From contig JAEUJH010000300.1 of the NCBI GenBank assembly GCA_016794825.1, forward strand, positions 4,095 to 68,094: 64,000 nucleotides of DNA, given 5' to 3'. Both the position numbers and the translations under genes were made by a program. Below, piece after piece: positions 3,001-41,903 of this stretch; position 1 is the stretch's first letter; each line of letters opens with the position of its first letter. Below the pieces are notes generated by a model. That model had not been told where the DNA came from. It saw nothing but the letters and a program-made list of their open reading frames with translations, and searched no databases. Source of the stretch: Gemmatimonadota bacterium. Its GTDB lineage: Bacteria > Gemmatimonadota > Gemmatimonadetes > Gemmatimonadales > GWC2-71-9.

Positions 3001-3269
3001 CCCGCTATCGGCCACGACCCTATCCGGGGGCGCTGCACCTGATCATGTCGACGGAACGCGGCGTCGGCAACGAGAACGACTCTCGCACGCTCTGGGCCAG
3101 GCTCGCCGCGCCGGACACCCGGATCCTGTGGACCACGGCGCCCGATTCGGGAGCGGTGCTCCGGTCGCCCTACGCCGAGCAGCTGGCGGCGTCGCTTCGG
3201 CCGCTGCTGCTCGATCGTCCGCCCGGCGCCGCGAGCGGCCCGGTCAGCGGGACGCCGCCGACCGGGTGA
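1..3269 (+). CDS. Non-ribosomal peptide synthetase, terminal module, 5' end cut by window edge: C(partial)-A-PCP-TE
   Basis: Frame 3 is open from nt 3. It shows the C-domain C-terminal half (FNALLYRYTGQEDLLVGTPVANR). A-domain cores are present: FTSGSTGQPKG, NGYGPTE, YRTGDLARY, GRVDGQIKIRGFRVEPGEVE, NGKVD. PCP motif FFDLGGNSLL has its Ser codon at 2280-2282. A C-terminal alpha/beta-hydrolase TE follows. Hand-extracted specificity code is DAFWLGGTFK (Val-like). Confidence 0.95.
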   Translation, partial: AAAIRALSQSLGGTPFTTLMAAFNALLYRYTGQEDLLVGTPVANRNLVELEPLIGLFVSTMVVRTAVDGASTLRDVELRVRHSMLEAAEHRDFPFEKIVEQVRPDRSLAHSPLFQVAFVFHNTPLTGTFDTLGGGAIYELSLFLSDSGNAIHGSIEFNANRYDPDTIRRMVGHFVALTDDAVAHPDRPISALAMLSGAERHRLLVEWNAAADLAEREASVVHRFEAQVARTPDAIAVEAAGETGASLTYRDLDRHANRLAAVLVARGVEPGDTVAVGLGRSLDFVGAILAVLKAGAAYVPIDPALPRDRRDVLLGEARVRRMIARGSTFPGASAGIELVDLDELGPVPDERTATRRHRDPTPESAAYVMFTSGSTGQPKGVVIPHRGITRLVVDPNYVQFTPHDVVLAAAPVSFDASTFEIWGALLNGCRLVVFPDGPPEITALAAALERHRITILWLTAGLFQLVVEARVDALAGLRQLLVGGDVVSPSHAKRAAAILRDGVLINGYGPTENTTFTCCHPMRGPEAVPDPVPIGRPVRGTRVYLLDAAMQPVPIGVRGELWTGGDGVALGYLNDADLTASRFQRDPFRSEVDARIYRTGDLARYRSDGVIEFLGRVDGQIKIRGFRVEPGEVESALRRHPAVTAAVVTAREYRSGDRRLIAYAVLDPDAKISPDELIAWLRQHLPEYAVPTRCVVLPAMPLTRNGKVDFAALPVPAERGPQAAAAPDGLETQLIITWERVLGITGIGLGDNFFDLGGNSLLGLQLLAELERAMGRRVPAAVLYQGQTVETMAAVLRTDVGAMSFGTIMIQPGGERTPLFVVPGINGNIIGYDVVARAFGSDQPFYGLRAVGLDGEARPLETIEAIAAAAVREIRRIQPTGPYQLLGFCMGGMVAYEVAQQLRGAGQVVSFVGMIDTFAPEQIPMKAKLTRTGHQVRFVAGRLRRYARTLSGLPWRKRWGFVREKLGVAAQVVQQRDLYRGNRFVLYREQVSAANQRAAARYRPRPYPGALHLIMSTERGVGNENDSRTLWARLAAPDTRILWTTAPDSGAVLRSPYAEQLAASLRPLLLDRPPGAASGPVSGTPPTG
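2440..3269 (+). other. Thioesterase (TE) domain with Cys in the nucleophile elbow
   Basis: PLFVVPGINGNIIGYDVVARAFGSDQPFYGL, then GFCMGG (Cys codon TGC at 2667-2669) where G-x-S-x-G is expected, then MIDTFAP (Asp). In the C-terminal APDSGAVLRSP segment, Ser occupies the position where the GDH His usually aligns (hand alignment). Confidence 0.8.
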
Positions 3270-3642: not shown

Positions 3643-3717
3643 ATGGCTAGTATACGGCGCGCCGGGAACCCCGTCCAGAGTGGCGGCGAGGCCGCACCCG
3701 GTCGGGGGGTGGCGTGA
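3643..3717 (+). CDS. Candidate 24-codon leader ORF coupled to the ABC permease
   Basis: A purine-rich SD run GGAGGGGAGGGAAGG (3629-3642) directly precedes ATG 3643. The ORF (MASIRRAGNPVQSGGEAAPGRGVA) ends at TGA 3715-3717, overlapping the permease GTG start at 3714 (GTGA). Confidence 0.2.
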   Translation: MASIRRAGNPVQSGGEAAPGRGVA

Positions 3718-4604
3718 CGGCCACGCCGGTCGCCGTGACCGAGAGCACCCCGCCCAGGTGGCGTCGCGACCTGGTCGACGGGGTGCGGGATACCTGGCGG
3801 GCCCGCGACCTGATCGTGCAGCTCGCCAAGCGCGACATCCGGATCCGCTACAAGGAAGCGGTGATGGGCTTCCTCTGGGCGCTCGTCATGCCGGTTATGG
3901 TGATCCTGTCGGGACTGATCATCAGGACGGCGCTGTCCCGCGCCACCGGGGGGTCGATCGACCGGGCGGTGGTCCTCGGGCTGGGCCTGAAGGGCATCAT
4001 GTGGGGGTTCTTCTCGGCCGCCCTCGGCACCGGGACCACGACCCTGACGAGCGGCGGCAACCTGGTCAGCAAGATCTATTTCCCGCGCGCGGCGCTTCCG
4101 ATCGCCACCACCATCACGGCGGCGCTCGACGCCACGATCGCGCTGACCGCCCTGACCCTGGCGGCCCCGTGGCTCGGCGTCCGGTGGAGCGCGGCCCTCC
4201 TCTGGGTTCCGATCCTCGCCGGCCTTCTGCTCATGATGACCGCGGCCGCGGTGCTCTTCTTCAGTTGCGCCAACGTGTTCTTCCGCGACGTGAAGTACCT
4301 GGTGCAGATGGGCCTCACGTTCGGGATCTTCGTGACACCGGTCTTCTTCGAGCCGGCCATGCTGGGCGGGAACGCCCCCTATCTGATGCTCAACCCCCTG
4401 GCCCCCATCCTGGAAGGCCTGGTGCTCGCCGTTCGTGACGGGCACAACCTCCTCACGCCGCTGATCGCTTCCGGGGCGGATGGCCTGACGGCGATCTGGT
4501 CCCCCTGGTACCTGGGATATTCCGCGGCCTGGGCCGGCGGTGGCCTCTTCCTCGCGGCGGCGATCTTCCGCCGGGCCGAATTCCACCTAGCGGACTTCGT
4601 GTGA
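3714..4604 (+). CDS. ABC-2 type transporter permease (Wzm/TagG-like)
   Basis: The N-terminal RDLIVQLAKRDIRIRYKEAVMGFLWALVMP signature is typical of ABC-2 polysaccharide/teichoic-acid exporter permeases. About 6 hydrophobic segments. Stop overlaps the ATPase start (GTGA at 4601-4604). Confidence 0.85.
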   Translation: MTATPVAVTESTPPRWRRDLVDGVRDTWRARDLIVQLAKRDIRIRYKEAVMGFLWALVMPVMVILSGLIIRTALSRATGGSIDRAVVLGLGLKGIMWGFFSAALGTGTTTLTSGGNLVSKIYFPRAALPIATTITAALDATIALTALTLAAPWLGVRWSAALLWVPILAGLLLMMTAAAVLFFSCANVFFRDVKYLVQMGLTFGIFVTPVFFEPAMLGGNAPYLMLNPLAPILEGLVLAVRDGHNLLTPLIASGADGLTAIWSPWYLGYSAAWAGGGLFLAAAIFRRAEFHLADFV

Positions 4605-5794
4605 GCTCACCGGCCGGCAGGATCGAGGCGATCGCCCTCGGCAAGAAGTATCGGCGAGGCCGCCAGCACGATAGTCTGCGGGACCTGATCCCCGCCGTGG
4701 CCCGGCGGCTGTTCTCGAGCCGCGCCGAGTCCGGGCGGCTTCGGCCGGAGGAGTTCTGGGCCCTGCGGGACGTCAGCTTCGACGTCGGGCCCGGCGATTC
4801 GCTCGGCGTGATCGGACACAATGGGGCCGGCAAGTCGACCCTGCTTCGACTCCTGATGCGGGTGACCCGACCGACCACCGGGCGGTGCCGGATCACCGGG
4901 CGGCTGAGCGGGCTGCTCGAGATCGCCGCGGGCTTTCATCCCGACCTCACCGGCCGAGAGAACATCTGGCTGCAAGCCGCGATCCTCGGCATGAGCCGAG
5001 CGGACATTCAACGGCGCTTCACGGCGATCGTGGACTTTTCGGGCATCGCGGAGTTCATCGATACCCCGGTCAAACGCTACTCGAGCGGGATGATGGCGCG
5101 CCTCGGCTTTTCGATCGCCGCGCACGTCGACCCCGACGCGCTCATCATCGACGAGATCCTGGCCGTCGGCGACCAGCAGTTCCAGGCCCAGGCTTTCGGA
5201 CGGATTCGCGAACTGGTGACCAGCGGCCGGCCCGTCATCCTCGTGTCGCACCAGCTGCCGGCGGTCGAGGAGCTGTGCCGGCGAGCGATCCTGCTTGAGC
5301 ACGGCACGATCGTCCACGAGGGGGCGGCGGCTGAGTGCGTCAAGCACTACCTGGGCACTGCCGGAACCACGTCGCGGCAACTCGCGGAGGATTCGCCGGT
5401 CACCATCGACGCGGTCGAGGCCGTCGATGCCGATCTGGTCCGCTCGGGCGACCGACTCAAGCTCCGGATCACGGCGTCGGTCGGCGGGCCAATCGACGAT
5501 CACCTCGAGCCGATCGCGGTCATCCTCCGCATGACGGCCGGCGGGACGATCCTGGCCGTGGTGGGATCCCGGGAGGCCGGTTTATCGCTTCCAACCGGCG
5601 GGCCAGTCAGTCTGGCGGTTTCGCTCCAGTTGAACGTGGCGCCGGGAATCTATTCGATCGAGGTCGTGGCTTGGGACAAGAAGCGGGAAGTCGCGCTGGC
5701 TTCCGGCCCGCCGGTTTCTGTCCAAGTGCAATCGGGACAACAGTTTCTGGGCCTAGTTCAAACCCACCCGGAAATGCGGATTCTGAGCAAATGA
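4601..5794 (+). CDS. ABC transporter ATP-binding protein, Wzt/TagH type with extra C-terminal domain
   Basis: Walker A GHNGAGKSTL. TagH/Wzt-type block GFHPDLTGRENIWLQAAILGM...FIDTPVKRYSSGMMARLGFSIA, then Walker B LIIDEILAVGD. About 145 additional C-terminal residues lie where the Wzt substrate-binding beta-sandwich sits. Confidence 0.9.
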   Translation: MSSPAGRIEAIALGKKYRRGRQHDSLRDLIPAVARRLFSSRAESGRLRPEEFWALRDVSFDVGPGDSLGVIGHNGAGKSTLLRLLMRVTRPTTGRCRITGRLSGLLEIAAGFHPDLTGRENIWLQAAILGMSRADIQRRFTAIVDFSGIAEFIDTPVKRYSSGMMARLGFSIAAHVDPDALIIDEILAVGDQQFQAQAFGRIRELVTSGRPVILVSHQLPAVEELCRRAILLEHGTIVHEGAAAECVKHYLGTAGTTSRQLAEDSPVTIDAVEAVDADLVRSGDRLKLRITASVGGPIDDHLEPIAVILRMTAGGTILAVVGSREAGLSLPTGGPVSLAVSLQLNVAPGIYSIEVVAWDKKREVALASGPPVSVQVQSGQQFLGLVQTHPEMRILSK

Positions 5795-5837
5795 GTGTTG
5801 TGTTCTCGCAACGGCGTTGCGTTGGAGTTACACTTTG

Positions 5838-6605
5838 ATGGCTCGAACACCTCCTCGGTGGTTTGTTCGGAGTCGGCCCAATCCCGATGCCCGTGTCCGA
5901 CTGATCTGCTTTCCACACGCCGGTGCGGGTGCTTCGGTCTACCGACTTTGGGGCCCCGACCTGGCTCCGGAGGTTGAGGTTGCGGCGGTGCAACTGCCCG
6001 GACGGGAGTCGCGCTTCACCGAGCCCGCGCCGACCGATCTGCGCGCCGCGGCCGAGGCGGCCGCCGACGCCATTGAGCCTGAGGTCCGCCCGCCCTTTGC
6101 GGTGTTCGGTCACAGCATGGGGGCGTGGCTTGCGTTCGAGTTCACTCGGATCCTCGAGTCGCGAGGTTCACCTCCCGTTCATCTCTTCGTCAGCGGACGA
6201 AGGGCACCGCACACGCCAGAGCGGTTTCCCCCCATGGGAGATCTGAACGACGACGAACTGGTCGCCGAGCTCGATCGGCGGGGTGGCGGGATGGCCCCGG
6301 AGATCCTGGCCAATCGAGAACTGCTGGCGCTGCTGACTCGAACGATGCGAGCCGACGTACGGGCGGTGGAGCGCTACCGGCCGATCGCGTCCGCGCCCAC
6401 CCTGACGGTGAGCCTAACGGCATTCGGGGGAATCGACGATCGGTTCGTGAGTCCGGAGGAGCTCGCCGCCTGGCGGACGACGAGCTCGGCGCCTGTCGCC
6501 GTCGAGATGTTCCCCGGGGGTCATTTCTTCCTCCACGACGATCGACACCAGGTGCTTCGGACCATCAGGACGGTCCTCCTTCCCGAGCCCGCGCCGGCGG
6601 TGTAG
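5838..6605 (+). CDS. Type II (editing) thioesterase
   Basis: RLICFPHAGAGASVYRLW, GHSMGAWLAFEF (GxSxG) and GGHFFL near the C-terminus. ATG 5838 is preferred over the TTG 5817 of the ORF track (GGAG lies 10 nt upstream). Confidence 0.9.
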   Translation: MARTPPRWFVRSRPNPDARVRLICFPHAGAGASVYRLWGPDLAPEVEVAAVQLPGRESRFTEPAPTDLRAAAEAAADAIEPEVRPPFAVFGHSMGAWLAFEFTRILESRGSPPVHLFVSGRRAPHTPERFPPMGDLNDDELVAELDRRGGGMAPEILANRELLALLTRTMRADVRAVERYRPIASAPTLTVSLTAFGGIDDRFVSPEELAAWRTTSSAPVAVEMFPGGHFFLHDDRHQVLRTIRTVLLPEPAPAV

Positions 6606-6840: not shown

Positions 6841-7100
6841 ATGGAGGCGCGCGTGGTACCCCGCCGTCTTCTCCACGCCTCGGTCGACGAGTGCGTGGTG
6901 GTCGAGCGCACCGCGGCCGACGGGTCCCGGGTGTTCCTGGCCTACCTGGTATCGGCGGCACCGCTCAACCTGGACGCCATCGGCTCGGCCCTTCGGAGCG
7001 TGGTCGGCGCGAACGACGTACGGCCCGTCCCGGTTGCGTCGATCCCGCTCCGATCGGATGGGACCGTCGACCTGGAGGCGCTCGCCAGGATTCCGGTGAT
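6841..7100 (+). other. Orphan adenylation-domain C-terminal-subdomain-like fragment at the protein N-terminus
   Basis: LLHASVDECVVVERTAADGSRVFLAYLVSAAPLNLDAIGSALRSVVGANDVRPVPVASIPLRSDGTVDLEALARIP follows the A8-A10 pattern (HPxVxEAVVVxR...RLVAYVV...LP.YM.P..FV.LD.LPLT.NGK.DR.AL). DGT replaces NGK, and no A-core precedes it. Confidence 0.55.
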
Positions 7101-10100
7101 CACCACCGCCACGACGGCGGCATGGGAAGAGGCCCTGCGATCGCGGGTGGGGGCCGGGGTTGCCCTCGTGGTGGACGAGCGCCAGGAGCCGGCCCTTCCG
7201 CTCCACCTTGCCGACCTGCTTCCCGATCGCGTCGAGCAGCCGCTGGGGTCGACTGGTCCGGCGCAGCCGGCGGTCGTCCCCGAGACCGCCAACTCGAGCA
7301 ACCGTCCCCTTGCCCTGGCGGTCGGGGATCCGCTCCCACCAGCGCCGGCGGCCAACCTGCCCGAGGCGCTGCAGGCCGCGGCCCGTCTCGACGCGACCAT
7401 CACCTACATCGCGGCGGACGGTACCAAGACCCAGCAGTCGTATCGTGACCTGCTGGCCAACGCTCGGCGACTGGCGAGCGGCCTACGCCGCCACGGCGTC
7501 GCGGTCGGTGACTTCGTGCTCCTTCAGGCCGGGGCGCCCGGCGAGTTCATCCCGGCGTTCTGGGGCTGCCAGATGGCGGGGGTCGTCCCGATCCCCGTGG
7601 CGCCGGCCTCACCCTACGGCAGCGGTGCGGCGGCGACCGAAGCAATGGTTCGGTCATGGGAAGTCATGGACCGACCGCCGATCCTCAGCGCGGCCTCGGT
7701 CCGAGCCCGGGTCGTCGAAGCGTTCGCCGCGCGGGGCGACCGTCCGCGAATCCTCGAACTCGAGGCACTCGACGGACCGGAGGACGGAGGCCCATCGGCC
7801 GGGCCCGATCCCGAGGCGATCGCGGCCTGCATGATGACGTCGGGCAGCACGGGAATGCCGAAGGGCGTGCTCCTGTCCCATCGGGCCCTGATCAGCCAAG
7901 CCCAGGGATCGATCCTGAGCAACGGCTTGACCCCGGCGGACGCCGTCCTCAACTGGGCTCCCCTCGATCATGTCGGTGGTCTGTCGGCCTGCCACCTGGT
8001 GCCCATGCTGATCGGGGCCCATCAAACCCAGTGCGATGGCGCGCGAATCCTCGAGGATCCGTTGCGGTGGCTCGACCTGATGTCGACCACCGGGTGTACC
8101 GCGACCTTCGCACCGAACTTCGCCTTCGCACTGATCAACGAGCGGCTCGGCTCGGCGCCCGGCCGGACCTGGGATCTCCGCCACGTCAAGGCGTTCTGGA
8201 ACGCCGGCGAGGCGGTAGTGGCCCGGACGGCGCGCCGCTTCCTCCGCCTGCTCGCGCCCCATGGGTTGTCGCCGCGGGCCATGCGGCCCGCCTGGGGCAT
8301 GTCGGAAACCTGCTCGGGGCTGACCTACTCGTCCGCCTTCGACTTCGACACGACGGGGGACGACGATCTGTTCGTCGACGTCGGCGCCCCGAACCCGGGA
8401 ACGGCGTTGCGGATCGTGGCCGCCGACGGGTCGCCGGCTCGGGAAGGCGACGAGGGTGCCCTCGAAGTATCCGGCATGAGCCTCATGGCCGGGTACTTCC
8501 GGAATCCGACGGCGACCGCGGCGGCATTCACGGCGGACGGTTGGTTCCGAACCGGCGACCTGGGTCGAGTCGTCGGTGGACGACTGACCGTGACCGGGCG
8601 GCTGAAGGACGTCTTGATCGTCAACGGGGTGAACCTCCATTGTCACGAAGTGGAGTCGGTGGTCGACGAAGTCGATGGCGTGGTGCCGTCGTACACGGCC
8701 GCATGCGCCGTCCGCGGCAGCCGCGACGCCACCGACCGGGTCGTGATCTTCCTCCACACCAACCGGAGCGACGTCCGAGGACAACGCCAGGTGGTCGCGT
8801 CGGTTCGAGCCGAAGTCGCTCGCCGCTTCGGCGTCCCGCCCGACTACGTGCTTCTCGTCGATCCGGACCGAATCCCCCGGACCAATCTTGGCAAGATCAA
8901 GCGGCCCCAGTTGAGCCAGGCGTTCAGCGAGGGCGCGTTCGCGGTCGAACAGCGTTGGACCGATCGGCTCGAGGGGAATCACCGAACCATCCCCGACTGG
9001 TTCGTGCGGCCCGTCTGGCGGGCCCGGGCGCTCGATGGCCCCTTCGACCCCGATGGCTCCGCGACGGTGGTCGTCTTCGTCGACTCACTGGGCGTCGGCG
9101 ATCGGATCGGGACCGAGTTGGCGCGCGCGGCGCGGAAGTGGATCGCCGTGGTACCCGGATCGGGGTTTGCCGCCCTCGGTCCCGGCCGCTACGCCATCGA
9201 CCCCGAGGCGCCGGACGACGCCAGGCGACTCGCGGCCGAGCTGGCTCGTCAGGGCCAGACGATCGGACCCACCCTTCACGCGTGGGGCATCGAGCCGCCC
9301 GGACCGCCCCCGAGCGACGACGCGGCATCCCGGCGGGCGGTCGCGCGGACGACGGGAAGCGTCCTGCACTGGATCCAGGCCCTCGCGGAGGCCGACGCCC
9401 GAGCGGCCACGGCGCGAGTGATCGTGGCCGCGACCGGGGTGCAGCGGCTCGAGCCAGGCGAGCCGGTCGTCGCCGAACGGGCGGCGGCCCTGGGCCTCGT
9501 GAAGTCGGCCCCACGCGAGCTTCCCTGGCTCGAGTGCCGCCATCTCGACATCGACGATGTCATGGCCGCCGCCCCTCTCATGATTCGGGAACTGGATTCG
9601 GCCGCCGCCGACCAGGAGGTGGCCTATCGGCGCGGCACCCGCCTGGTGGCTCGGCTCGCGCCCGTGGAGTGGCCGGCGCCAACGGTGACGACCCCCGCGT
9701 TCCGGACGGCCGGTCTCTACCTGATCGCCGGTGGGCTGGGCGGGATCGGTTCGGAGGTGGCGGCTCGACTGCTGCGCGAGTTCGACGCGCGGTTGCTGCT
9801 GGTCGGGAGGACGCCGCTCGATCGGCTCGACGCCGAACGAGCCGCCGCGTGGACCGAACTGCGCTCGATCGGGGACGGTCGGGTCCGCTACGTCGCCGCT
9901 GACCTCGCCGACGGCCCCGTGATTCGGGCGGCGGTTCAAGAGGCCGCGGCCGGATTCGGCCGACCGTTGGCCGGGGCGATCCACATGGCAGGCGGATATG
10001 ACGACCGGCCGGTGATGGCGGAGACGATCGCGGGTCTGATCGAGCCGATCGCGCCCCGCCTCCTGGGAGGTCGGGTCCTGGCGAGCCTGCTCGACCGAGA

Positions 10101-13100
10101 GGATCAAGTGTTGATCACGGTCTCCTCGGCCGCTGGATGGTTCGGCGGCGCCGCGATGACCGCCTATACCGCGGCCAGCCGGGTGGCGGAGGCCCTCGCG
10201 CTCGAACTCGGGCCGACCCTGCCTGGCCGGGTTCATCATCTCGCCTGGAGCGCCTGGCGGGATACCGGAGTCAGTCGGAAGGTCCAGGACCCCGAACCGC
10301 ATCAAGCTCGGCGTTACCTGTCGATGACCCGGGCGCAAGGATGGCACTCGCTGCTGGCCGGGCTCGGGATCACCCCGGGTCTCCTCATCGTCGGGCTCAA
10401 CCGGAGTCACCGCCAGATCCGCCGTTTCCTGGTCGAGGAGCGGAGCGATCTCCAGACGGTTCGACTCTACCTCGAGGCAAGCTGCCCGCAGGGGCCGCAG
10501 GTACTGCATGACGCGTTCGGCTCGGCTTGCCATCCGGAGATTCGCTCGCTGCCGGCCTTGCCGCGGACCGATGCCGGCGCCATCGATCGCCGGGCGCTGG
10601 CCGACGCCGGCAGGGCGGGCGGCTCTCGGGACTTCGTGCCGCCCCGCACGGCAGTCGAGCGGGAATTGGCGGCGATCTGGACCGAGTTGCTTGGCCTCGA
10701 CCAGGTCGGTCGGACGGACCCCTTTCTCGAAATGGGGGGACATTCGCTGGTGGCGGCCCAGCTGGTGTCGCGGATCCGGGAGGCCTTCGGCGTCGCGATG
10801 CCCCTGGCCACGGTCTTCGCCGAGCCGACGATCGAAGCGCAAGCGCAACTCATCGAGCAAGCCCGGAGCGATACCAAGCCCGCGGCCGCCCCACCCGCGG
10901 CCCGTCGCGACCCCGCGCCGGATCAGCGGTCCCCGAACCACCCGAGCAACCCCGGGGCCCTTGGCGCGCCTGGTGGAGGACGCTCATCCATGACCCCGGT
11001 CGACCCCAAGCGGGAACTCCTGCTCCGCCTCCTCCGCCAGCGGGGCCTCGAACCGTCCCAGCTCCCCATCGTCCGTCGGGCCCGCCCGGGGGAACTGGTC
11101 CCGCTGTCGTTCTCGCAGGAGCGGCTCTGGTTCCTCCATCAGATGGACCCGGCCGCCGCTTCGTACCATCTGACGTTCGACGTGGCGTTCGACCAGGCGA
11201 TGGAACCGGCGGTGATGCGGGAGAGCCTGCGTCAGCTCCTGGAACGGCATGAGATTCTCCGGACGACGTATCATGACGTCGACGGCCGCCCGATGCAGCG
11301 GGTCGAAACGGCGTGGGAGGCCAGCGTCGAGGCGTTCGACCTGACCGGCGCCGCCGGCCCGGTCAGGGACACCGAGCTGCGGGCGATCGCCACCCGCATC
11401 GGGCAGACCCCGTTCGACCTGGTCCGAGGCCCGGTCATCCGGGCCGCCCTCGTGCGGACCGGACCGGCGAGTTCTCATCTCTACTTGGCGGTCCACCATA
11501 TCGCGGTCGATGGCCTGTCGCTTGGGATCCTCTTCCGAGAGTTGACCGATACGTCCGCCGCGATTGCGGCCGGCACCGCGCCCCAACTGCCGGCTTTGCC
11601 GATCCAGTACGCGGACTACTCGCTTTGGCAGCGGGAGACCCTCAGTGGCTCGCTCCTGGAGCGCCACCTCGACTACTGGCGGGGTCGCCTGGCCGGCGCG
11701 ACCGGGCTCGAGTTGTATCCCGACCGACCCCGACCGAGCCGACCGAGTTACCGGGGCGGGAACATCGTCCGGGACCTTCCCGCTGCCCTGGTTGCGGACC
11801 TCCAGGCCCTCGCGCGGCGAGAGGGGGCCACCTTCTTCATGGTGCTGCTGGCGGCGTTCAAGACCCTGCTCCACCGCTACACCGGGTCGACCGACATCGT
11901 GGTGGGGTCGCCGGTTGCCAACCGGGACCGACCCGAGATCGAGCCGTTGATCGGCTTCTTCGTCAACACGCTGGTGCTCCGGACGGATGCGAGTGGCGAA
12001 CCGACGTTCCGCGAGTTCCTGCGACGGGTGCGGGAAACCAGCCTGGGGGCGTTCGACCATCAGGCGCTGCCCTTCGAGAAGCTGGTGCAGGAGGTGGTGT
12101 CGGAGCGCGACCTGAGTCGCAATCCGCTCTTCCAGATCATGTTCGGCCTTCACAAGACCGGGCGGGAAGATCTTCGCTTCGGAGACGACGGGGAGGTGGC
12201 CGGGGGGATGGACGACCAAGCCACCCGCTTCGACCTCGAAGTCGTCGTCTCGGCGACGGATGAGGCGACGGTGCTCTCGTTCGTCTATGCGTCCGACCTG
12301 TTCGATGCCGCCACGATCGAGGCCCTCGCCGAGCACTTCGTCACCGTGGCTGCCGCTGCCGCCCGAGATCCCGACCAGCCGATCGGACGGCTCCCCGTCA
12401 TGACCGAGGCGGAACGGCACCGCGTCACGGTCGAATGGAACGACACCGCCAAGGACTATCCGTCGGCGTGCCTCCATCAGCTGGTGGAGGCCCAGGTCGC
12501 CCGTTCGCCCGACGCGATCGCCGTCGAGGCCGGCACGGCCTCCCTCACGTATCGCGAACTCGATCAGCGCGCCACCGCGCTGGCGCGCTGGCTGGCGCAG
12601 CAGGGCGTCGGCCCGGATCGACTGGTGGCCGTCTCGCTCGACCGGTCGCTCGAGATGGTCGTGGCGCTGCTCGGGGTGCTCAAGGCGGGCGGGGCCTACG
12701 TGCCGGTCGACCCGTCCTATCCCGAAGCCCGAGTGCGCCACATGCTGGTCGATTCCGCCGCGTCGATCGTCCTGACGCAGGCCGATATCGCCCGCTTCCA
12801 CGCCGACCTCGGCGCGACCGTGCTCTGCCTCGATACCGAGTGGGGCCGGGTGGTGGCCACGCCCGACACGGTTCCCTTCCAGCCGCCCGGGCCGTCGAAC
12901 CTCGCCTACGTCATCTATACCTCGGGTTCGACCGGCCAGCCGAAAGGGGCGATGAACGAGCACCGGGGCATCGTGAATCGACTCCGGTGGATGCAGGACA
13001 CCTTCGGCCTCGGGCCCGACGACGCGGTCCTCCAGAAGACGCCGTTCAGCTTCGACGTTTCGGTCTGGGAATTCTTCTGGCCGCTGATGACGGGCGCCCG

Positions 13101-14289
13101 GCTGGTGATGGCCCGCCCCGACGGCCATCGGGACCCCGGCTACCTGGCCGGGGTGATCGGCGACCGCCGGATCACGACGCTGCACTTCGTTCCGTCGATG
13201 CTCCGGGCGTTCCTGGCGAGCGGTCACGGCCCCGGCCTGACCGGCGTGCGGCGGGTCATTTGCAGCGGCGAGGCGCTCCCGCCGGATCTGGCCCGGCGCC
13301 ACGCGGAGCGCTGGGGCGTGCCGCTCCACAATCTCTACGGCCCGACCGAGGCCGCCGTCGACGTGACGTGGTGGCCGGTCGCCTCGGCCGAAGCGGGCAG
13401 CGCGATTCCGATCGGCCGGCCGATCGCCAACACGACGGTCTCCGTGCTCGATGCTCGGCAGTTGCCCGTTCCTCCCGGGGTGCCAGGCGAGCTGTACCTC
13501 GGCGGCGTTCAGGTTGGTCGCGGCTACTGGCGGCGACCCGAGTTGACCGCCGAGCGCTTCGTTCCCGATCCGCTCGATCTGTCGGGAACGGCCCGTCTCT
13601 ACCGCACGGGCGACCTGGTTCGGTGGCGACGGGACGGCGCCCTCGACTTCCTCGGCCGGATCGATCATCAGGTCAAGCTCCGCGGGTTCCGGATCGAGCT
13701 GGGCGAGATCGAGACCGCGCTGGCCGTGGCGCCCGGGGTCGGATCGGCGGTGGTGACGCTGCGGGAGGATACGCCCGGCGACGCCCGCCTCGTGGCATAC
13801 GTCGTCCCCGGGCCCGGAACCGCCCCGACCCTGGAGGGGATCCGACGGGCGCTCGCGAGCACGCTACCCGACTACATGATCCCGTCGGCGCTGGTCACGC
13901 TCGAGCGAATTCCGGTGAGCCCGAGCGGCAAGGCGGACCTGAAGGCGCTCCCGGCGCCCGAGGTCGACCTCGCCGCGCTCCGCGGCACGTACCTCGCACC
14001 CCGGGATTCGACCGAGGCGACCCTGGCGACGATCTGGGAGCAAGTCCTCGGCGTTCCCCGGGTGGGCGTGCGGGACAACTTCTTCACGTTGGGTGGCCAT
14101 TCACTGCTCGCGACCCTGCTGGTGTCGCGGGTGCGGGACCAGCTCGGGATCGAGATCCCGCTCCGCACGGTGTTCGAGGAACCGACGGTGGAGGGCATGG
14201 CCCTGGCGGCCCTGCAGTTGAAAGCGGCGGGGACCGACGCGGGCGAGGTCGACCGGCTGCTTCGAGAACTGGAGCAATCCGCGTCATGA
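6841..14289 (+). CDS. Hybrid loading/NRPS megasynthase: Asub-like fragment - FAAL - KR-like - ACP - C - A(Ser-like) - PCP
   Basis: FAAL-type ligase motifs: MMTSGSTGMPKGVLLSHRAL, NWAPLDHVGGL, WGMSET, GWFRTGDLG, GRLKDVLIVNGVNLHCHEVE, NLGKIKR. PKS-type KR Rossmann GLYLIAGGLGGIGS. ACP motif FLEMGGHSLV (Ser at 10744-10746). C domain LSFSQERLWF and HHIAVDG. A domain YTSGSTGQPKG, NLYGPTE, YRTGDLVRW, SGKAD. PCP motif FFTLGGHSLL (Ser at 14101-14103). Hand code DVWHISLVDK (Ser-like). Confidence 0.95.
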   Translation: MEARVVPRRLLHASVDECVVVERTAADGSRVFLAYLVSAAPLNLDAIGSALRSVVGANDVRPVPVASIPLRSDGTVDLEALARIPVITTATTAAWEEALRSRVGAGVALVVDERQEPALPLHLADLLPDRVEQPLGSTGPAQPAVVPETANSSNRPLALAVGDPLPPAPAANLPEALQAAARLDATITYIAADGTKTQQSYRDLLANARRLASGLRRHGVAVGDFVLLQAGAPGEFIPAFWGCQMAGVVPIPVAPASPYGSGAAATEAMVRSWEVMDRPPILSAASVRARVVEAFAARGDRPRILELEALDGPEDGGPSAGPDPEAIAACMMTSGSTGMPKGVLLSHRALISQAQGSILSNGLTPADAVLNWAPLDHVGGLSACHLVPMLIGAHQTQCDGARILEDPLRWLDLMSTTGCTATFAPNFAFALINERLGSAPGRTWDLRHVKAFWNAGEAVVARTARRFLRLLAPHGLSPRAMRPAWGMSETCSGLTYSSAFDFDTTGDDDLFVDVGAPNPGTALRIVAADGSPAREGDEGALEVSGMSLMAGYFRNPTATAAAFTADGWFRTGDLGRVVGGRLTVTGRLKDVLIVNGVNLHCHEVESVVDEVDGVVPSYTAACAVRGSRDATDRVVIFLHTNRSDVRGQRQVVASVRAEVARRFGVPPDYVLLVDPDRIPRTNLGKIKRPQLSQAFSEGAFAVEQRWTDRLEGNHRTIPDWFVRPVWRARALDGPFDPDGSATVVVFVDSLGVGDRIGTELARAARKWIAVVPGSGFAALGPGRYAIDPEAPDDARRLAAELARQGQTIGPTLHAWGIEPPGPPPSDDAASRRAVARTTGSVLHWIQALAEADARAATARVIVAATGVQRLEPGEPVVAERAAALGLVKSAPRELPWLECRHLDIDDVMAAAPLMIRELDSAAADQEVAYRRGTRLVARLAPVEWPAPTVTTPAFRTAGLYLIAGGLGGIGSEVAARLLREFDARLLLVGRTPLDRLDAERAAAWTELRSIGDGRVRYVAADLADGPVIRAAVQEAAAGFGRPLAGAIHMAGGYDDRPVMAETIAGLIEPIAPRLLGGRVLASLLDREDQVLITVSSAAGWFGGAAMTAYTAASRVAEALALELGPTLPGRVHHLAWSAWRDTGVSRKVQDPEPHQARRYLSMTRAQGWHSLLAGLGITPGLLIVGLNRSHRQIRRFLVEERSDLQTVRLYLEASCPQGPQVLHDAFGSACHPEIRSLPALPRTDAGAIDRRALADAGRAGGSRDFVPPRTAVERELAAIWTELLGLDQVGRTDPFLEMGGHSLVAAQLVSRIREAFGVAMPLATVFAEPTIEAQAQLIEQARSDTKPAAAPPAARRDPAPDQRSPNHPSNPGALGAPGGGRSSMTPVDPKRELLLRLLRQRGLEPSQLPIVRRARPGELVPLSFSQERLWFLHQMDPAAASYHLTFDVAFDQAMEPAVMRESLRQLLERHEILRTTYHDVDGRPMQRVETAWEASVEAFDLTGAAGPVRDTELRAIATRIGQTPFDLVRGPVIRAALVRTGPASSHLYLAVHHIAVDGLSLGILFRELTDTSAAIAAGTAPQLPALPIQYADYSLWQRETLSGSLLERHLDYWRGRLAGATGLELYPDRPRPSRPSYRGGNIVRDLPAALVADLQALARREGATFFMVLLAAFKTLLHRYTGSTDIVVGSPVANRDRPEIEPLIGFFVNTLVLRTDASGEPTFREFLRRVRETSLGAFDHQALPFEKLVQEVVSERDLSRNPLFQIMFGLHKTGREDLRFGDDGEVAGGMDDQATRFDLEVVVSATDEATVLSFVYASDLFDAATIEALAEHFVTVAAAAARDPDQPIGRLPVMTEAERHRVTVEWNDTAKDYPSACLHQLVEAQVARSPDAIAVEAGTASLTYRELDQRATALARWLAQQGVGPDRLVAVSLDRSLEMVVALLGVLKAGGAYVPVDPSYPEARVRHMLVDSAASIVLTQADIARFHADLGATVLCLDTEWGRVVATPDTVPFQPPGPSNLAYVIYTSGSTGQPKGAMNEHRGIVNRLRWMQDTFGLGPDDAVLQKTPFSFDVSVWEFFWPLMTGARLVMARPDGHRDPGYLAGVIGDRRITTLHFVPSMLRAFLASGHGPGLTGVRRVICSGEALPPDLARRHAERWGVPLHNLYGPTEAAVDVTWWPVASAEAGSAIPIGRPIANTTVSVLDARQLPVPPGVPGELYLGGVQVGRGYWRRPELTAERFVPDPLDLSGTARLYRTGDLVRWRRDGALDFLGRIDHQVKLRGFRIELGEIETALAVAPGVGSAVVTLREDTPGDARLVAYVVPGPGTAPTLEGIRRALASTLPDYMIPSALVTLERIPVSPSGKADLKALPAPEVDLAALRGTYLAPRDSTEATLATIWEQVLGVPRVGVRDNFFTLGGHSLLATLLVSRVRDQLGIEIPLRTVFEEPTVEGMALAALQLKAAGTDAGEVDRLLRELEQSAS
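7390..8930 (+). other. Fatty acyl-AMP ligase (FAAL)-like adenylation domain
   Basis: The motifs listed for the parent CDS resemble FAAL/acyl-CoA-ligase cores more than amino-acid A domains. The substrate cannot be read from the sequence. Confidence 0.75.
8990..10400 (+). other. PKS-type ketoreductase-like domain (structural plus catalytic halves) with altered catalytic residues
   Basis: The DWFVRPVW start and overall layout match the KR regions of the two PKS modules. The expected catalytic Lys (APKxxG) reads APRLLGG (Arg codon 10057-10059). YAAAN reads YTAAS (Tyr codon 10165-10167 retained, Asn replaced by Ser). Confidence 0.7.
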
Positions 14290-23249: not shown

Positions 23250-23408
23250 GTGAACCTCGCGGCGCTCGTCGCGCAGCTCCGCGAGCTCGGCGTAACGCTG
23301 TGGCTCGAGGGCGATCGGCTCCGCTTCGCGGCACCGCCCGGGCGGCTCACGCCCGAGTTGCGGGAGGCCATGAAGCAGCACCGCCAGGAGCTGGTCGAAC
23401 TCCTGGCC
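23250..23408 (+). other. N-terminal beta-hairpin (TubC-type) docking domain
   Basis: MNLAALVAQLRELGVTLWLEGDRLRFAAPPGRLTPELREAMKQHRQELVELLA matches the TubC N-terminal docking pattern (L..L...GV.LW.EGD.LR..AP.G.LT.ELR..L..HK.EL..LL). Confidence 0.8.
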
Positions 23409-39000: not shown

Positions 39001-40692
39001 CACTACCACCGCCTGCTGACCACCCTCGAGAGCAGCGAACGGTCTCCCACGCGGATCGTCCACTTGTGGACGGTCGGAGCACCGTCGGTCGGCGACGACC
39101 GCCTCGCCGCGGCGGATCGAGCCAGGACCCGGGGGCTCCACAGTCTCCTGTTCCTCGCGCAGGCCACCGGCAACCATCCGAGTCAGCGGACCACCTCGTG
39201 GATCGTCGTCTCGAGCGGCGTCCACGCGGTCGTCGACCCGGCGGAGGCCACCGACCCCGAGAAGGCGATCCTGACGGGGATCTGCCAGGTGATTCCGCTC
39301 GAGTACCAGGGCGTGGCCTGCCGAGTCGTCGACCTCGAACTGCCCGTCGAACCAGCGGGCGTCGCGGCGGCCGCCGAACGACTGGTACGCGAAGCGACCG
39401 TGGACCGCAGCGCCAGCACCATCGCGTATCGCGCTGGCCGCCGCTGGGAGCTGACCTACGAGGCCGTGACACTCCGCCGGCGGCCACCCGCGGCGCTCGC
39501 CCGCCGGGAAGGGGGCGTCTACCTGATCACCGGCGGGACGGGAGGATTGGGCCTGGTGTTCGCCGCCAGCCTGGCCTCCGCCGGAGGAACCCTGGTGCTG
39601 ACGTCGCGATCCGGACTGCCCGATCGAAAGGACTGGGACCGCCTGACCGCGGCCGACCCAACGGGGCGGCAGGCGGTCACGTTGGCCGCGATCCGGGAGC
39701 TCGAGAAGAAGGGGACGACGGTCGAAGTCGTAGCCACCGACGCCGGCAACCCCGACGCGGTGCGAGCCCTGGTGACCGAGTTGCGAAGGCGTCTCGGCGT
39801 CATCCATGGCGTGATCCACGCGGCGGGGGTTCCCGGTGGCGGCATGCTCCAGCTCCGGACCCGGGCGCAGATCGACGAGGTCCTGGCCCCGAAGGTCACG
39901 GGAACCCTGGCCCTGCACGAGGCGCTCCAAGGGAATCCGCTCGACTTCTTCGTCCTCTGCTCCTCCATCAACGCGATCCTGACGGGCCCTGGCGGCGCGG
40001 ATTACTGCGCCGCGAACGCGTTCCTCGATGCCTACGCCCACCACCGGCACGGCCGCGGCGACCGCTCGGTGGTGTCCATCAACTGGGATACCTGGCGCGA
40101 CGTGGGAATGGCCGTCAACGCGATCGTCCCCGCCGACCGCGAAGCGGCCAAGGCGGCGAGCCTGGCCACCGGTATCCTGGCCGAAGAGGGAGTTGCCGCG
40201 CTGGGCCGCATCGTCGGCGCCGAACTCCCCCAAGTGGTGGTGTCGACCCGCGATCTCCAGTTGCTCCGCTACCTCGATACACTCGGTCGAATCGCGAGGG
40301 GCGCGACCACTGGGGGCCAGGGCCCCTCCGGCTCGCTCCCGAGCTCAGCGACCTCGCGGCACCAGCGTCCCGACCTTGGGACCGAGTTCGTCCAGCCGGC
40401 CAGCGATGACGAACGCCGAGTGGCGTCGATCTGGGAGGAGTTGCTGGGCATCGATGGCGTCGGCGTCAACGACAACTTCTTCGAGCTCGGGGGCCATTCC
40501 CTGCTGGCGACTCAGGTCCTGGTGCGGATCCGAGATGCCTTCGGGGTGACCATTCCGCTCGAGGCCGTGTTCGACGCGCCGACCGTCGGACAACTGGCCG
40601 ACCGGATCGGCACGCTGCGATGGATTGTGGAATCGAGCCAACCTTCGACCCGCGAGGAGCCGGACGGCCACCGTGAGGAGTTCGAGATTTAG
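36070..40692 (+). CDS. Type I PKS module: KS - AT(malonyl-type) - KR - ACP with C-terminal docking peptide, no TE
   Basis: ATG 36070 overlaps the upstream TGA (ATGA). KS motifs [19 protein letters not shown] (Cys at 36601-36603), [10 protein letters not shown] and NLGHLD. AT motifs FSGQGSQ, GHSIGE (Ser at 37942-37944) and HAFHS. KR motifs [19 protein letters not shown] and [10 protein letters not shown] motif [10 protein letters not shown] (Ser at 40498-40500). The protein ends ...[25 protein letters not shown]. Confidence 0.95.
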
Positions 40693-41868: not shown

Positions 41869-41903
41869 CCTCCAAACATAGCGCCCGGCGGCCCCCGGAC
41901 CCG

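What the first reader, a model, noticed from the sequence alone, without database searches (positions are those of the whole stretch)
6841..10900. Unusual loading module: FAAL-like ligase followed by a full PKS-type KR region whose catalytic Lys and Asn are replaced, then ACP
The starter unit is activated by an FAAL/acyl-ligase-type domain rather than an amino-acid A domain. A complete KR region then lies between ligase and ACP. Its Rossmann motif is intact and its layout matches the two bona fide module KRs. Compared with those KRs (HPKMDG/AAYAAAN and [13 protein letters not shown]), this one reads APRLLGG (Arg at 10057-10059) and AYTAAS. A reductive domain in a lipo-initiation module is uncommon. 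The substitutions suggest either an inactive structural relic or altered chemistry on a keto-acyl starter.
Basis: partly seen in the sequence, partly recalled or inferred. Interest (0 to 1): 0.6.

Follow-up and report, generated by a model that had tools for sequence, protein, structure and literature searches.

The report
Keto-acid loading module with variant reductase
The "fatty-acid ligase plus polyketide reductase" is a known type of peptide-synthetase starter module that loads a 2-keto acid and normally reduces it to a 2-hydroxy acid; the only unusual thing is that two catalytic residues of its reductase are swapped (Lys to Arg, Asn to Ser), a rare variant that recurs in nature and has not been studied.

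Summary
Residues 1-1340 of the 2482-aa gene at 6841-14289 hold an acyl-adenylating domain, a two-subdomain KR with an intact GGLGGIG motif, and a carrier domain. Four independent alignments place Arg1073 (CGC, 10057-10059) at the catalytic Lys and Ser1113 at the catalytic Asn.

This is not a FAAL lipo-initiation module with a borrowed PKS KR. It is colinear with StsA module 1 (PDB 6ULW, E 3e-168; model TM 0.81), the keto-acid "KAL-KR-T" depsipeptide module. It has Val in place of Asp235, the Gly-Met motif, no FAAL insertion, and Asub-like remnants before the ligase and after the KR. About 40% of the closest homologues are also N-terminal modules.

The source is a Gemmatimonadota MAG. Five assemblies carry the same Arg/Ser pair.

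K-to-R occurs in about 4-6% of this KR family and in none of 141 other KRs sampled. It recurs independently, always with Ser, Tyr and the Rossmann motif intact. It also occurs in elongation C-KAL-KR-T modules, which need the hydroxyl. I therefore favour an active reductase giving a 2-hydroxyacyl cap (about 0.6). A dead scaffold KR giving a 2-oxoacyl cap is the main rival (about 0.25).

The parts
6841..7104 (+). N-terminal Asub-like remnant (aa 1-88). It is a degenerate C-terminal subdomain of an adenylation domain, and the A10 Lys is replaced by Thr ('SDGTVD'). It is the N-terminal contributor to the pseudo-Asub, or a remnant of a lost 'Ax' domain.
   Evidence: hhalign of the family profile against canonical Asub: probability 99.6%, E 1.2e-24, 86 columns. 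The segment is conserved at the N terminus, or between C and KAL, in 57 homologues. Pfam calls AMP-binding_C on the homologous segment of P0066 and P0077 but not on the query itself.
7105..7350 (+). Conserved linker between the Asub-like remnant and the ligase (aa 89-170).
   Evidence: phmmer hits cover query aa 4-170 in family members, E down to 1e-20. The StsA alignment starts at aa 118.
7351..8955 (+). 2-keto-acid AMP ligase-type adenylation domain (KAL; aa 171-705). Key residues: A3 motif TSGSTGMPKG; Val378 (nt 7972-7974) in place of Asp235; Gly486-Met487 (nt 8296-8301); A10 Lys685 (nt 8893-8895). The 10-residue code is VGSNWAASGK.
   Evidence: Aligns to the StsA A domain 6ULX (E 5.5e-104) and the McyG A domain 4R0M (E 5e-120). 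A5-A7 spacing is 81 aa, so there is no FAAL insertion.
8983..9690 (+). KR structural (pseudo-KR) subdomain (aa 715-950).
   Evidence: Pfam Beta-ketacyl_N at aa 764-907. AF2 model with pLDDT mostly 80-96. Foldseek top hit is 6ULW.
9712..10395 (+). KR catalytic subdomain (aa 958-1185). Contains the Rossmann motif GGLGGIG (nt 9730-9750), GR990, D1021 and HMAG1048-1051.
   Evidence: Pfam KR at aa 958-1140. 66 of 75 family-conserved columns are kept, including all cofactor-motif positions. AF2 pLDDT here is 85-97.
10057..10059 (+). Arg1073 (CGC) at the position of the catalytic Lys.
   Evidence: The codon is three nucleotide changes from AAG or AAA.
10126..10128 (+). Catalytic Ser1096, retained.
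10165..10167 (+). Catalytic Tyr1109, retained.
10177..10179 (+). Ser1113 (AGC) at the position of the catalytic Asn.
   Evidence: The codon is one nucleotide change from AAC.
10405..10614 (+). Post-KR Asub-like segment (aa 1189-1258), the C-terminal half of the pseudo-Asub. Its A10-like motif is 'DAGAIDRRAL', with the Lys replaced by Ala.
   Evidence: hhalign against canonical Asub: probability 96.4%, E 1e-9. Against the N-terminal remnant: probability 96.8%. Conserved in 34 homologues. Aligned to StsA up to residue about 1163.
10648..10854 (+). Thiolation (PCP-type) domain (aa 1270-1338). The phosphopantetheine-attachment Ser1302 lies in GGHSL (nt 10744-10746).
   Evidence: Pfam PP-binding, first of two stretches. 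Motif position. Aligns to StsA up to residue 1305.
11098..14202 (+). Module 2 of the same protein, C-A-T. The C domain has HHIAVDG and the A-domain code DVWSISLVDK is Ser-like. This module receives the starter unit.

Best explanation
Residues 1-1340 of the gene at 6841-14289 are an initiation module of the keto-acid (depsipeptide-type) NRPS family exemplified by StsA/CesA module 1 and AulA. The domain order is Asub-like remnant, KAL, pseudo-KR plus KR, Asub-like remnant, T.

Proposed mechanism:
- The ligase adenylates a 2-keto acid. The keto group is recognised by the Gly486-Met487 backbone, and Val378 replaces the amine-binding Asp.
- The ligase loads the acid on Ser1302 of the T domain.
- The KR then reduces the tethered 2-ketoacyl thioester with NAD(P)H to a 2-hydroxyacyl unit.
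- The next C domain passes this unit to a Ser-like residue. This primes a nine-module NRPS/PKS line in a Gemmatimonadota bacterium.

The KR carries an Arg-Ser-Tyr-Ser set instead of Lys-Ser-Tyr-Asn. I think this is a tolerated or compensated natural variant that still reduces.

What is shown: homology, architecture, residue identities and the frequency of the variant. What is inferred: the substrate class, that reduction occurs, and the product. My probability for the module identity is about 0.9. Given that identity, my probability that the KR is active is about 0.6.
For: Identity of the module:
- aa 118-1338 are colinear with 6ULW residues 46-1305, E 3e-168.
- The KR-region model (pLDDT 85, pTM 0.83) matches 6ULW best: TM 0.81-0.82 against 0.61-0.75 for PKS KRs.
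- 6ULW is the StsA A-KR-T keto-acid initiation module with a pseudo-Asub (PMC10510592 and PMC11253843).
- The defining residues I306 and G414-M415 (PMC7923214) map to V378 and G486-M487.
- Essentially all homologues with a scorable ligase domain (about 130) share V/I/P at position 235, N278 and the GM motif.
- The flanking Asub-like segments are supported. A partial 'Ax' remnant completing the pseudo-Asub is described in PMC13643306.
- AulA is a characterised initiation module of this type (PMC5238615).

KR probably active:
- The cofactor motif, Ser and Tyr are intact. Only 9 of 75 conserved columns differ, against a family median of 5.
- Truly degenerate members look different, with sets such as ESIS or ESMA and, in one, a destroyed Rossmann motif.
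- K-to-R is found in 6 of 107 family KRs and 0 of 141 other KRs. Further cases are L028 and P0186.
- The R variants are scattered in the tree. One occurs in a Lys-rich protein (P0111), so GC bias does not explain the change.
- The Arg codon CGC is three changes from a Lys codon, so the substitution is old.
- Arg variants sit in elongation C-KAL-KR-T modules with intact C domains: P0027 from Pyxidicoccus, L028 from Sorangium and P0136. In those modules the upstream C domain needs the hydroxyl as its nucleophile.
- N-to-S or N-to-C occurs in about 16% of otherwise canonical KRs.
- E. coli FabG K155R is active in vivo (PMC7973133).
Against: - No biochemical data exist for any Arg variant.
- The Lys is about 92% conserved in the family. 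K163R inactivates the SDR enzyme HSD3B7 (PMC11648244).
- An initiation module is under no constraint to make a nucleophile.
- KRs lacking the Tyr occur in 4 of 44 N-terminal modules. Dead KRs retained in this position are therefore real.
- The query is at the 90th percentile of divergence at conserved columns. It also changes the 98%-conserved G1158 and the 93%-conserved D1187.
- The elongation-module argument is indirect. One probable elongation module carries His in place of the Tyr (P0033).
- The closest relatives differ by only 14-16 nt, so selection on the KR could not be measured.
- The substrate is unknown. Trp453 at code position 299 is almost unique in the family.
Confidence: 0.58

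Rival explanations
1. Same keto-acid initiation module, but the Arg/Ser KR is catalytically dead. It is kept only as the scaffold that holds the pseudo-Asub and positions the T domain. The assembly line would then be primed with an unreduced 2-oxoacyl unit, giving an N-terminal 2-oxoacyl (alpha-ketoamide) cap.
For: - Both the Lys and the Asn of the tetrad are replaced.
- K-to-R abolishes activity in at least one SDR enzyme while cofactor and substrate binding are kept (PMC11648244).
- N-terminal modules with clearly dead, Tyr-less KRs exist: P0017, P0104, P0108 and P0150. The KR can therefore be retained without catalysis.
- In StsA the KR and pseudo-Asub are described as structurally important for the module.
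- The query is more diverged than most at conserved columns.
Against: - The Rossmann motif, GR, D1021, HxAG, Ser and Tyr are all retained. Clearly dead members have lost several of these.
- The same Arg-Ser-Tyr-Ser set is present in intact elongation modules of two distant myxobacteria, where reduction is required for chain growth.
- The Arg codon is old and codon-adapted, yet no further decay has accumulated.
Confidence: 0.25
2. The ligase loads an acid that has no 2-keto group, for example an aryl-alkyl or 2-hydroxy acid as proposed for McyG-type loading domains. The KR would then be a vestige with nothing to reduce.
For: - The closest solved adenylation domain is McyG (405 bits against 352 for the StsA A domain). 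The two align without gaps across A5-A8.
- The codes differ at only two positions: VGSNWAASGK in the query and VGVNVAASGK in McyG.
- Trp at code position 299 is nearly unique, so the pocket is atypical.
Against: - Several KR-containing family members have exactly the McyG code (P0017, P0100, P0128, L004). McyG similarity therefore does not argue against keto acids.
- The Gly-Met motif and the hydrophobic residue at position 235 are present.
- The KR shows no general decay.
Confidence: 0.1
3. One reading: a FAAL-type fatty-acid lipo-initiation module that has acquired a PKS-type KR, acting on a beta- or keto-fatty acyl starter.
For: - FAAL structures are detectable relatives of the ligase (3PBK at E 3e-44, FadD32 and others).
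- PKS KRs share the two-subdomain fold.
Against: - There is no FAAL insertion.
- StsA and McyG score 60-120 orders of magnitude better than FAALs.
- The whole unit, including its flanks, is colinear with a keto-acid NRPS module.
- KAL domains are reported as a clade separate from FAALs (PMC13643306).
- The carrier is PCP-type, and no starter C domain or fatty-acid genes are nearby.
Confidence: 0.03

Closest known systems
StsA module 1 (Bacillus stratosphericus cereulide-like synthetase; PDB 6ULW/6ULX) and its relatives CesA, CesB, Vlm1 and Vlm2
   Same: Colinear A(KAL)-KR-T initiation module with flanking pseudo-Asub pieces. A hydrophobic residue replaces Asp235, the Gly-Met motif is present, and the KR has two subdomains. 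Sequence E is 3e-168 and model TM is 0.81.
   Different: - StsA has the canonical Lys and Asn in its KR.
- StsA has a roughly 23-residue insertion between A5 and A7 that the query lacks.
- StsA's N-terminal piece is short, whereas the query keeps an 88-residue Asub-like remnant.
- The codes differ: IGVNIGASAK (alpha-KIC) in StsA against VGSNWAASGK in the query.
- Identity is only about 25-30%, and the phyla differ.
AulA (auriculamide, Herpetosiphon aurantiacus), architecture A1(dead)-A2-KR-PCP
   Same: A characterised initiation module that adenylates a 2-keto acid. Reduction by the embedded KR to the N-terminal 2-hydroxy acid is inferred from the product. It belongs to an NRPS-PKS hybrid with a type II thioesterase (PMC5238615).
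   Different: AulA keeps a whole degenerate A domain upstream, whereas the query keeps only an Asub-like piece. Herpetosiphon relatives in the sample have the canonical KSYN set (L033 and L034).
Dol15D-M2 and PyrG (C-Ax-KAL-KR-T) and CrpD-M2 (C-KAL-KR-T)
   Same: KAL clade ligase plus KR. An Ax remnant is proposed to complete the pseudo-Asub (PMC13643306).
   Different: Those are elongation modules that form esters. The query is an initiation module with a variant KR tetrad.
McyG loading A domain (PDB 4R0M)
   Same: It is the closest solved adenylation domain to the query (E 5e-120). It has Val at position 235, the motif FGMTE, and the same length across A5-A8.
   Different: McyG has no KR and no pseudo-Asub. 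It is followed directly by a PCP and a PKS module.
Myxobacterial bimodular NRPSs P0027 (Pyxidicoccus sp. MSG2, WP_267861759) and L028 (Sorangium sp. So ce134): A-T-C-KAL-KR-T
   Same: They carry the same Arg-Ser-Tyr-Ser set in a KR of the same family. KR identity to the query is 38-39%.
   Different: They are elongation modules. In L028 a KS-AT-cMT-ACP-TE protein follows. They are uncharacterised and are not orthologues of the query.

Membership tests
Keto-acid (depsipeptide-type) NRPS module: KAL-KR-T with pseudo-Asub (StsA/CesA/AulA type) | The adenylating domain has a hydrophobic residue in place of the amine-binding Asp235 (I306 in StsA). | tested here: met
   Val378 in PLDHVGG aligns with I306. 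The feature is defined in PMC11253843 and PMC7923214.
Keto-acid (depsipeptide-type) NRPS module: KAL-KR-T with pseudo-Asub (StsA/CesA/AulA type) | Gly-Met in the A5 motif (G414-M415 in StsA), where amino-acid A domains have Gly-Pro. | tested here: met
   WGMSE, with G486-M487. The canonical A domains of the window have YGPTE.
Keto-acid (depsipeptide-type) NRPS module: KAL-KR-T with pseudo-Asub (StsA/CesA/AulA type) | A two-subdomain KR lies between the adenylating domain and the T domain. | tested here: met
   Pfam order, AF2 model and Foldseek top hit 6ULW.
Keto-acid (depsipeptide-type) NRPS module: KAL-KR-T with pseudo-Asub (StsA/CesA/AulA type) | Split pseudo-Asub: Asub-like sequence before the ligase and after the KR. 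| tested here: met
   hhalign gives 99.6% for the N-terminal piece and 96.4% for the post-KR piece. Family conservation is shown. Whether the two pieces pack into one fold was not modelled. The post-KR part of the model has pLDDT of only 61-67.
Keto-acid (depsipeptide-type) NRPS module: KAL-KR-T with pseudo-Asub (StsA/CesA/AulA type) | Canonical KR catalytic residues Lys, Ser, Tyr and Asn. | tested here: not met
   The set is Arg1073, Ser1096, Tyr1109 and Ser1113. The family frequency of Arg at this position is 6 of 107.
Keto-acid (depsipeptide-type) NRPS module: KAL-KR-T with pseudo-Asub (StsA/CesA/AulA type) | Adenylates 2-keto acids and reduces the tethered ketoacyl unit with NAD(P)H. | not testable with these tools
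   This needs enzyme assays.
Fatty acyl-AMP ligase (FAAL) loading domain | FAAL-specific insertion in the N-terminal domain. I recall its location downstream of A5 from memory. | tested here: not met
   A5-A7 spacing is 81 aa, against 85 in a canonical A domain. FadD32-type chains are about 38 residues longer over the same stretch. FadD28 and FadD32 are 40-60 residues longer overall.
Fatty acyl-AMP ligase (FAAL) loading domain | The closest relatives are FAALs. | tested here: not met
   StsA scores E 3e-168 and McyG 5e-120, whereas the best FAAL (3PBK) scores 3e-44.
Type I PKS module beta-ketoreductase | Sits in a KS-AT-(DH/ER)-KR-ACP module and is most similar to PKS KRs. | tested here: not met
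   No KS or AT is present in the module. PKS KRs are weaker matches than the NRPS keto-acid KR, both by sequence (E 3e-15 or worse against 2e-41) and by fold (TM 0.61-0.75 against 0.81).
Inactive KR (KR0 / C-type) | Loss of the NADPH-binding motif and/or the catalytic Tyr. | tested here: not met
   GGLGGIG, GR990, D1021, HMAG, Ser1096 and Tyr1109 are all present. This does not prove activity.

The most novel reading that the evidence does not exclude
The Arg/Ser KR is a dead scaffold. This Gemmatimonadota assembly line would then be primed with an unreduced 2-oxoacyl unit, giving a peptide-polyketide with an electrophilic N-terminal alpha-ketoamide cap. Together with the Tyr-less KRs seen only in N-terminal modules, this would define a class of 'KAL-KR0-T' starters.

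The mirror-image reading is also new if true: Arg-Ser-Tyr-Ser is a working natural alternative to the Lys-Ser-Tyr-Asn tetrad of short-chain reductases. That reading carries the remaining probability.
Probability: 0.25. Interest if true: 0.55.

Novelty: new variant of a known kind. Interest (0 to 1): 0.35.

Why it matters
The module type is already understood, so the "unusual loading module" itself is not a discovery. Automated and by-eye annotation will tend to call it CAL/FAAL plus a PKS KR, and this case shows how to recognise it instead.

Three points remain of interest:
1. There is a naturally recurring Arg-for-Lys substitution at the catalytic position of an SDR-type ketoreductase. It is confined in this sample to keto-acid NRPS modules and is sometimes paired with Asn-to-Ser. 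A simple assay would show whether Arg can serve in the tetrad or whether these KRs are scaffolds.
2. The answer decides whether the product starts with a 2-hydroxy or a 2-oxo acid.
3. The roughly 45-kb NRPS/PKS cluster lies in Gemmatimonadota. I am not aware of an assembly-line product characterised from this phylum; that statement is from memory and was not checked.

Tried and rejected
- **Word-indexed protein search.** It returned only 3-4 weak PKS hits for the KR region, both alone and as a profile. For P0027 it returned only short fragments. The exhaustive representative search was needed to see the family.
- **Single-protein scan of species genomes.** It found nothing. The profile scan found 500 relatives.
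- **Myxobacterial origin.** I first assumed this from 70% GC and TubC_N docking domains. Exact protein look-up showed a Gemmatimonadota MAG instead.
- **Pfam on the N-terminal 170 aa and the post-KR stretch.** It gave no hit. Profile-profile comparison was required.
- **The primary StsA paper (Alonzo et al. 2020).** It is not held in the library. I relied on two reviews and two papers that summarise it.
- **dN/dS on the KR.** It was not possible because the only close relatives are 99.8% identical.
- **Substrate prediction from the 10-residue code.** It is not reliable. Published keto-acid codes use different alignments, and the query's Trp at position 299 has no characterised counterpart.
- **Coupling of K-to-R with N-to-S.** It appears in 2 of about 5 independent events against a background of about 8%. 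This is suggestive only (my own estimate, p about 0.05).
Full report
**What is in the sequence.**
The window is about 70% G+C. A 2482-aa ORF runs from 6841 to 14289 on the + strand. Pfam places the following domains in order: an AMP-binding domain, Beta-ketacyl_N (the KR structural subdomain, aa 764-907), KR (aa 958-1140), PP-binding, and then a complete C-A-T module.

- GGLGGIG at aa 964-970.
- APRLLGG, with Arg1073 encoded by CGC at 10057-10059.
- VSSAAG, with Ser1096.
- AYTAAS, with Tyr1109 and Ser1113 (AGC, 10177-10179).
- The comparison motifs HPKMDG/AAYAAAN and [13 protein letters not shown], in the KRs of the two PKS modules at 23250-31220 and 36070-40692.

**Is the K-to-R and N-to-S call an alignment artefact? 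No.**
phmmer against all PDB sequences aligns 'iapRllGG' with 'yeaKvyGt' of StsA, 'PKvsG' of the PksJ KR and 'PKvfG' of the MlnE KR. It aligns 'aYtAAS' with 'aYcAAN', 'YaAAN' and 'YafAN'. MAFFT alignments of 248 KR domains from the 150 best library hits give the same columns, as do 93 KR domains from genome loci.

In an AlphaFold model of aa 715-1245 (mean pLDDT 85, pTM 0.83), the residues fall where an SDR fold expects them. Ser1096 ends a strand. Tyr1109 and Ser1113 sit at the start of the following helix. Arg1073 lies in the preceding helix.

Four other assemblies from different samples carry the same gene with 14-16 nucleotide differences and identical R/S/Y/S residues. The substitutions are therefore real.

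**What the unit is.**
The whole of aa 118-1338 aligns colinearly with residues 46-1305 of PDB 6ULW at E 3e-168. The KR region alone gives E 2e-41 to 6ULW, against 3e-15 or worse for PKS KRs. The model's best structural match is again 6ULW, with TM 0.81-0.82 and rmsd 2.6-2.9 Å over about 499 columns. PKS KRs follow at TM 0.61-0.75.

6ULW is the A-KR-T initiation module of StsA, a cereulide-type synthetase that selects alpha-ketoisocaproate. Its hallmarks are as follows (PMC10510592, PMC11253843 and PMC7923214):
- A hydrophobic residue (I306) in place of the amine-binding Asp235.
- The Gly414-Met415 backbone that recognises the keto group.
- A pseudo-Asub domain assembled from residues at the N terminus and about 70 residues after the KR.

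In the query these map to Val378, Gly486-Met487, and conserved extensions at both ends.

Profile-profile comparison shows that both extensions are degenerate Asub domains. The N-terminal 88 residues match canonical Asub at probability 99.6% (E 1e-24), with the A10 Lys replaced by Thr. Residues 1189-1258 match at 96.4%, with the A10 Lys replaced by Ala.

[quoted passage not shown] It notes that antiSMASH calls it 'CAL' and reports that it forms a clade distinct from A domains and from fatty acyl ligases. It describes partial 'Ax' remnants that complete the pseudo-Asub (PMC13643306). The query fits that description.

**Why it is not a FAAL.**
- FAAL structures are only distant hits (best 3e-44), whereas McyG scores 5e-120 and the StsA A domain 5.5e-104.
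- Between motifs A5 and A7 the query has 81 residues. This is the family mode, and the canonical A domain of the same protein has 85.
- The query aligns without gaps to McyG over A5-A8. FadD32-type chains are about 38 residues longer there, and even StsA carries a lineage-specific insertion of about 23 residues.
- The carrier motif GGHSL is PCP-like.

**How common the architecture is.**
An exhaustive HMMER search of 1.84 billion representatives finds 1,191 proteins at E <= 1e-30. None exceeds about 43% identity to the query.

Of the 106 best hits that cover the whole KR-plus-flank region, 44 have it in the N-terminal module. A reductive domain in the first module is therefore ordinary for this family.

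AulA of Herpetosiphon is a biochemically characterised initiation example in an NRPS-PKS hybrid (PMC5238615).

Relatives occur in cyanobacteria, myxobacteria, Bacillus, Paenibacillus, Streptomyces, Herpetosiphon, Acidobacteriota and others.

**Source and context.**
Exact protein look-up places the window in a Gemmatimonadota MAG (NCBI proteins between MBL8986309 and MBL8986323, on a 74.7-kb contig). Near-identical copies occur in Gemmatimonadales MAGs and raw assemblies. My early guess of a myxobacterium, based on TubC_N docking domains, was wrong.

The assembly line comprises the following genes:
1. Gene A: the starter module plus a Ser-like module.
2. Two C-A(MT)-T genes.
3. dock-C-A-T-KS-AT-KR-ACP.
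4. C-dock-C-A(Gly-like)-T.
5. KS-AT-KR-ACP.
6. Encoded upstream, beyond an ABC transporter and a type II thioesterase: dock-C-A-T-TE.

**The variant tetrad.**
Among 248 KR domains, the Lys position is K in 240, R in 6, E in 2 and F in 1. The Asn position is N in 204, C in 21 and S in 20.

All six Arg cases, including the query, lie in the 107 KAL-associated KRs. None lies in the 141 other KRs (my estimate, p about 0.006). Further Arg cases are L028 (Sorangium sp. So ce134, RSYS) and P0186 (RSYH).

The Arg variants are scattered in a neighbour-joining tree. They occur in both GC-rich and Lys-rich proteins. They always keep Ser, Tyr and the Gly-rich motif.

Members that are clearly degenerate look different. 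Examples are ESIS, ESMA with the Rossmann motif replaced by VGIVNIA, KSPH and KSEN.

The query keeps 66 of 75 columns that are at least 85% conserved, including every cofactor-motif column. Its nine deviations put it at the 90th percentile of the family. They include G1158R and D1187N outside the active site. The Arg codon CGC is three changes from a Lys codon, so the substitution is old.

**Does the Arg/Ser KR work?**
The most informative evidence is indirect. P0027 (Pyxidicoccus), L028 (Sorangium) and P0136 share 49-52% identity over a common A-T-C-KAL-KR-T architecture. They carry RSYS, RSYS and RSYN respectively, while their relative P0140 has KSYS. Their C domains have intact active-site motifs: HHLVCDG, HHIVSDG and SHLACDG.

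In such an elongation module the acceptor has no amine. The upstream C domain can therefore only use the hydroxyl made by the KR. If these lines function, an Arg-bearing KR must reduce.

In the sample, KRs lacking the Tyr occur, where context can be judged, only in N-terminal modules (4 of 44). There is one ambiguous His variant. Arg variants occur in both module positions.

The literature cuts both ways. K155R of E. coli FabG remains active in vivo (PMC7973133). K163R of HSD3B7 is inactive while still binding cofactor and substrate (PMC11648244).

I therefore put about 0.6 on an active KR giving a 2-hydroxyacyl starter. I put about 0.25 on a scaffold-only KR giving a 2-oxoacyl starter. I put about 0.1 on a ligase that loads a non-keto acid, leaving the KR with nothing to do.

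**Substrate.**
The 10-residue code read against GrsA is VGSNWAASGK. An StsA-like Bacillus locus gives IGVNIGASAK and McyG gives VGVNVAASGK. Common family codes are VGVNLGASGK, VVLNMAATCK, VAINLGASGK and IGSNLAASGK.

Trp at position 299 is shared with only one other member. I do not predict the side chain. A bulky Trp would suggest a small substrate, but that is speculation.

**Verdict.**
The framing as an unusual FAAL/PKS-KR lipo-initiation module is replaced by a known family. What is left is a rare, recurrent and uncharacterised catalytic-residue variant in a new phylum. This is a modest but cleanly testable point.

Noticed in passing
window 31217-36073 (+): This NRPS gene reads C (HHIAVDG at aa 178), then an internal TubC_N-like docking domain (aa 487-534), then C (HHIISDG at aa 686)-A-T. 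The result is a condensation domain with no A-T of its own, followed by a docking element in the middle of a protein. Other assemblies have a protein of the same 1618-aa length.
   Followed up: partly
window 60-3269 (+); complete in L087 1142-5314: The only TE-containing module (TubC_N-C-A-T-TE, 1390 aa) is encoded upstream of the loading gene. An ABC transporter (3714-5794) and a type II thioesterase (5817-6605) separate them. The last downstream PKS gene (36070-40692) ends in an ACP without a TE. Gene order is therefore not colinear with the assembly order.
   Followed up: partly
window 40699-42423 (-): A 574-aa beta-lactamase-fold protein is encoded directly after the TE-less last PKS gene, on the opposite strand. 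Proteins of this fold can act as stand-alone peptide cyclases or hydrolases (from memory). An Amidohydro_2 gene follows at 42637-43839 (-).
   Followed up: no
whole window; L081-L090: The window comes from a Gemmatimonadota MAG. The same cluster is present at about 99.8% nucleotide identity in at least five assemblies from different samples (NCBI GCA_020851315.1, ENA ERZ27296326, ERZ926170 and ERZ926204, plus Logan runs). One population is therefore widespread.
   Followed up: yes
PDB 4R0M versus P0017, P0100, P0128 and L004: The McyG loading A domain has exactly the same 10-residue code (VGVNVAASGK) as several KAL-KR-T modules. It also has the FGMTE motif and Val at position 235. By sequence, McyG's starter-selecting domain belongs to the keto-acid ligase clade.
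   Followed up: no
P0017, P0104, P0108, P0150 (KR at about aa 720-1290 of each): KRs of this family that have lost the catalytic Tyr (KSFN, KSPH, ESMA, KSEN) all sit in N-terminal modules. This hints that dead KRs are tolerated specifically in initiation modules.
   Followed up: partly
L028 556-13060 (Sorangium sp. So ce134); P0027, P0136, P0140: A conserved bimodular NRPS, A-T-C-KAL-KR-T (about 2450 aa, 49-52% identity between members), is followed in Sorangium by KS-AT-cMT-ACP-TE. Three of the four members have Arg at the catalytic Lys position of the KR. The product is unknown to me.
   Followed up: partly
window 9982-10008 (aa 1048-1056, HMAGGYDDR): A 'YDD' follows the HxAG motif at the place where B-type PKS KRs carry 'LDD'. 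Most family members have no acidic pair there. Any relevance for stereochemistry was not examined.
   Followed up: no
window 8197-8199 (Trp453): Trp at specificity-code position 299 of the ligase is shared with only one of roughly 130 family members with a scorable ligase domain. That member is P0104, whose KR lacks the Tyr.
   Followed up: no
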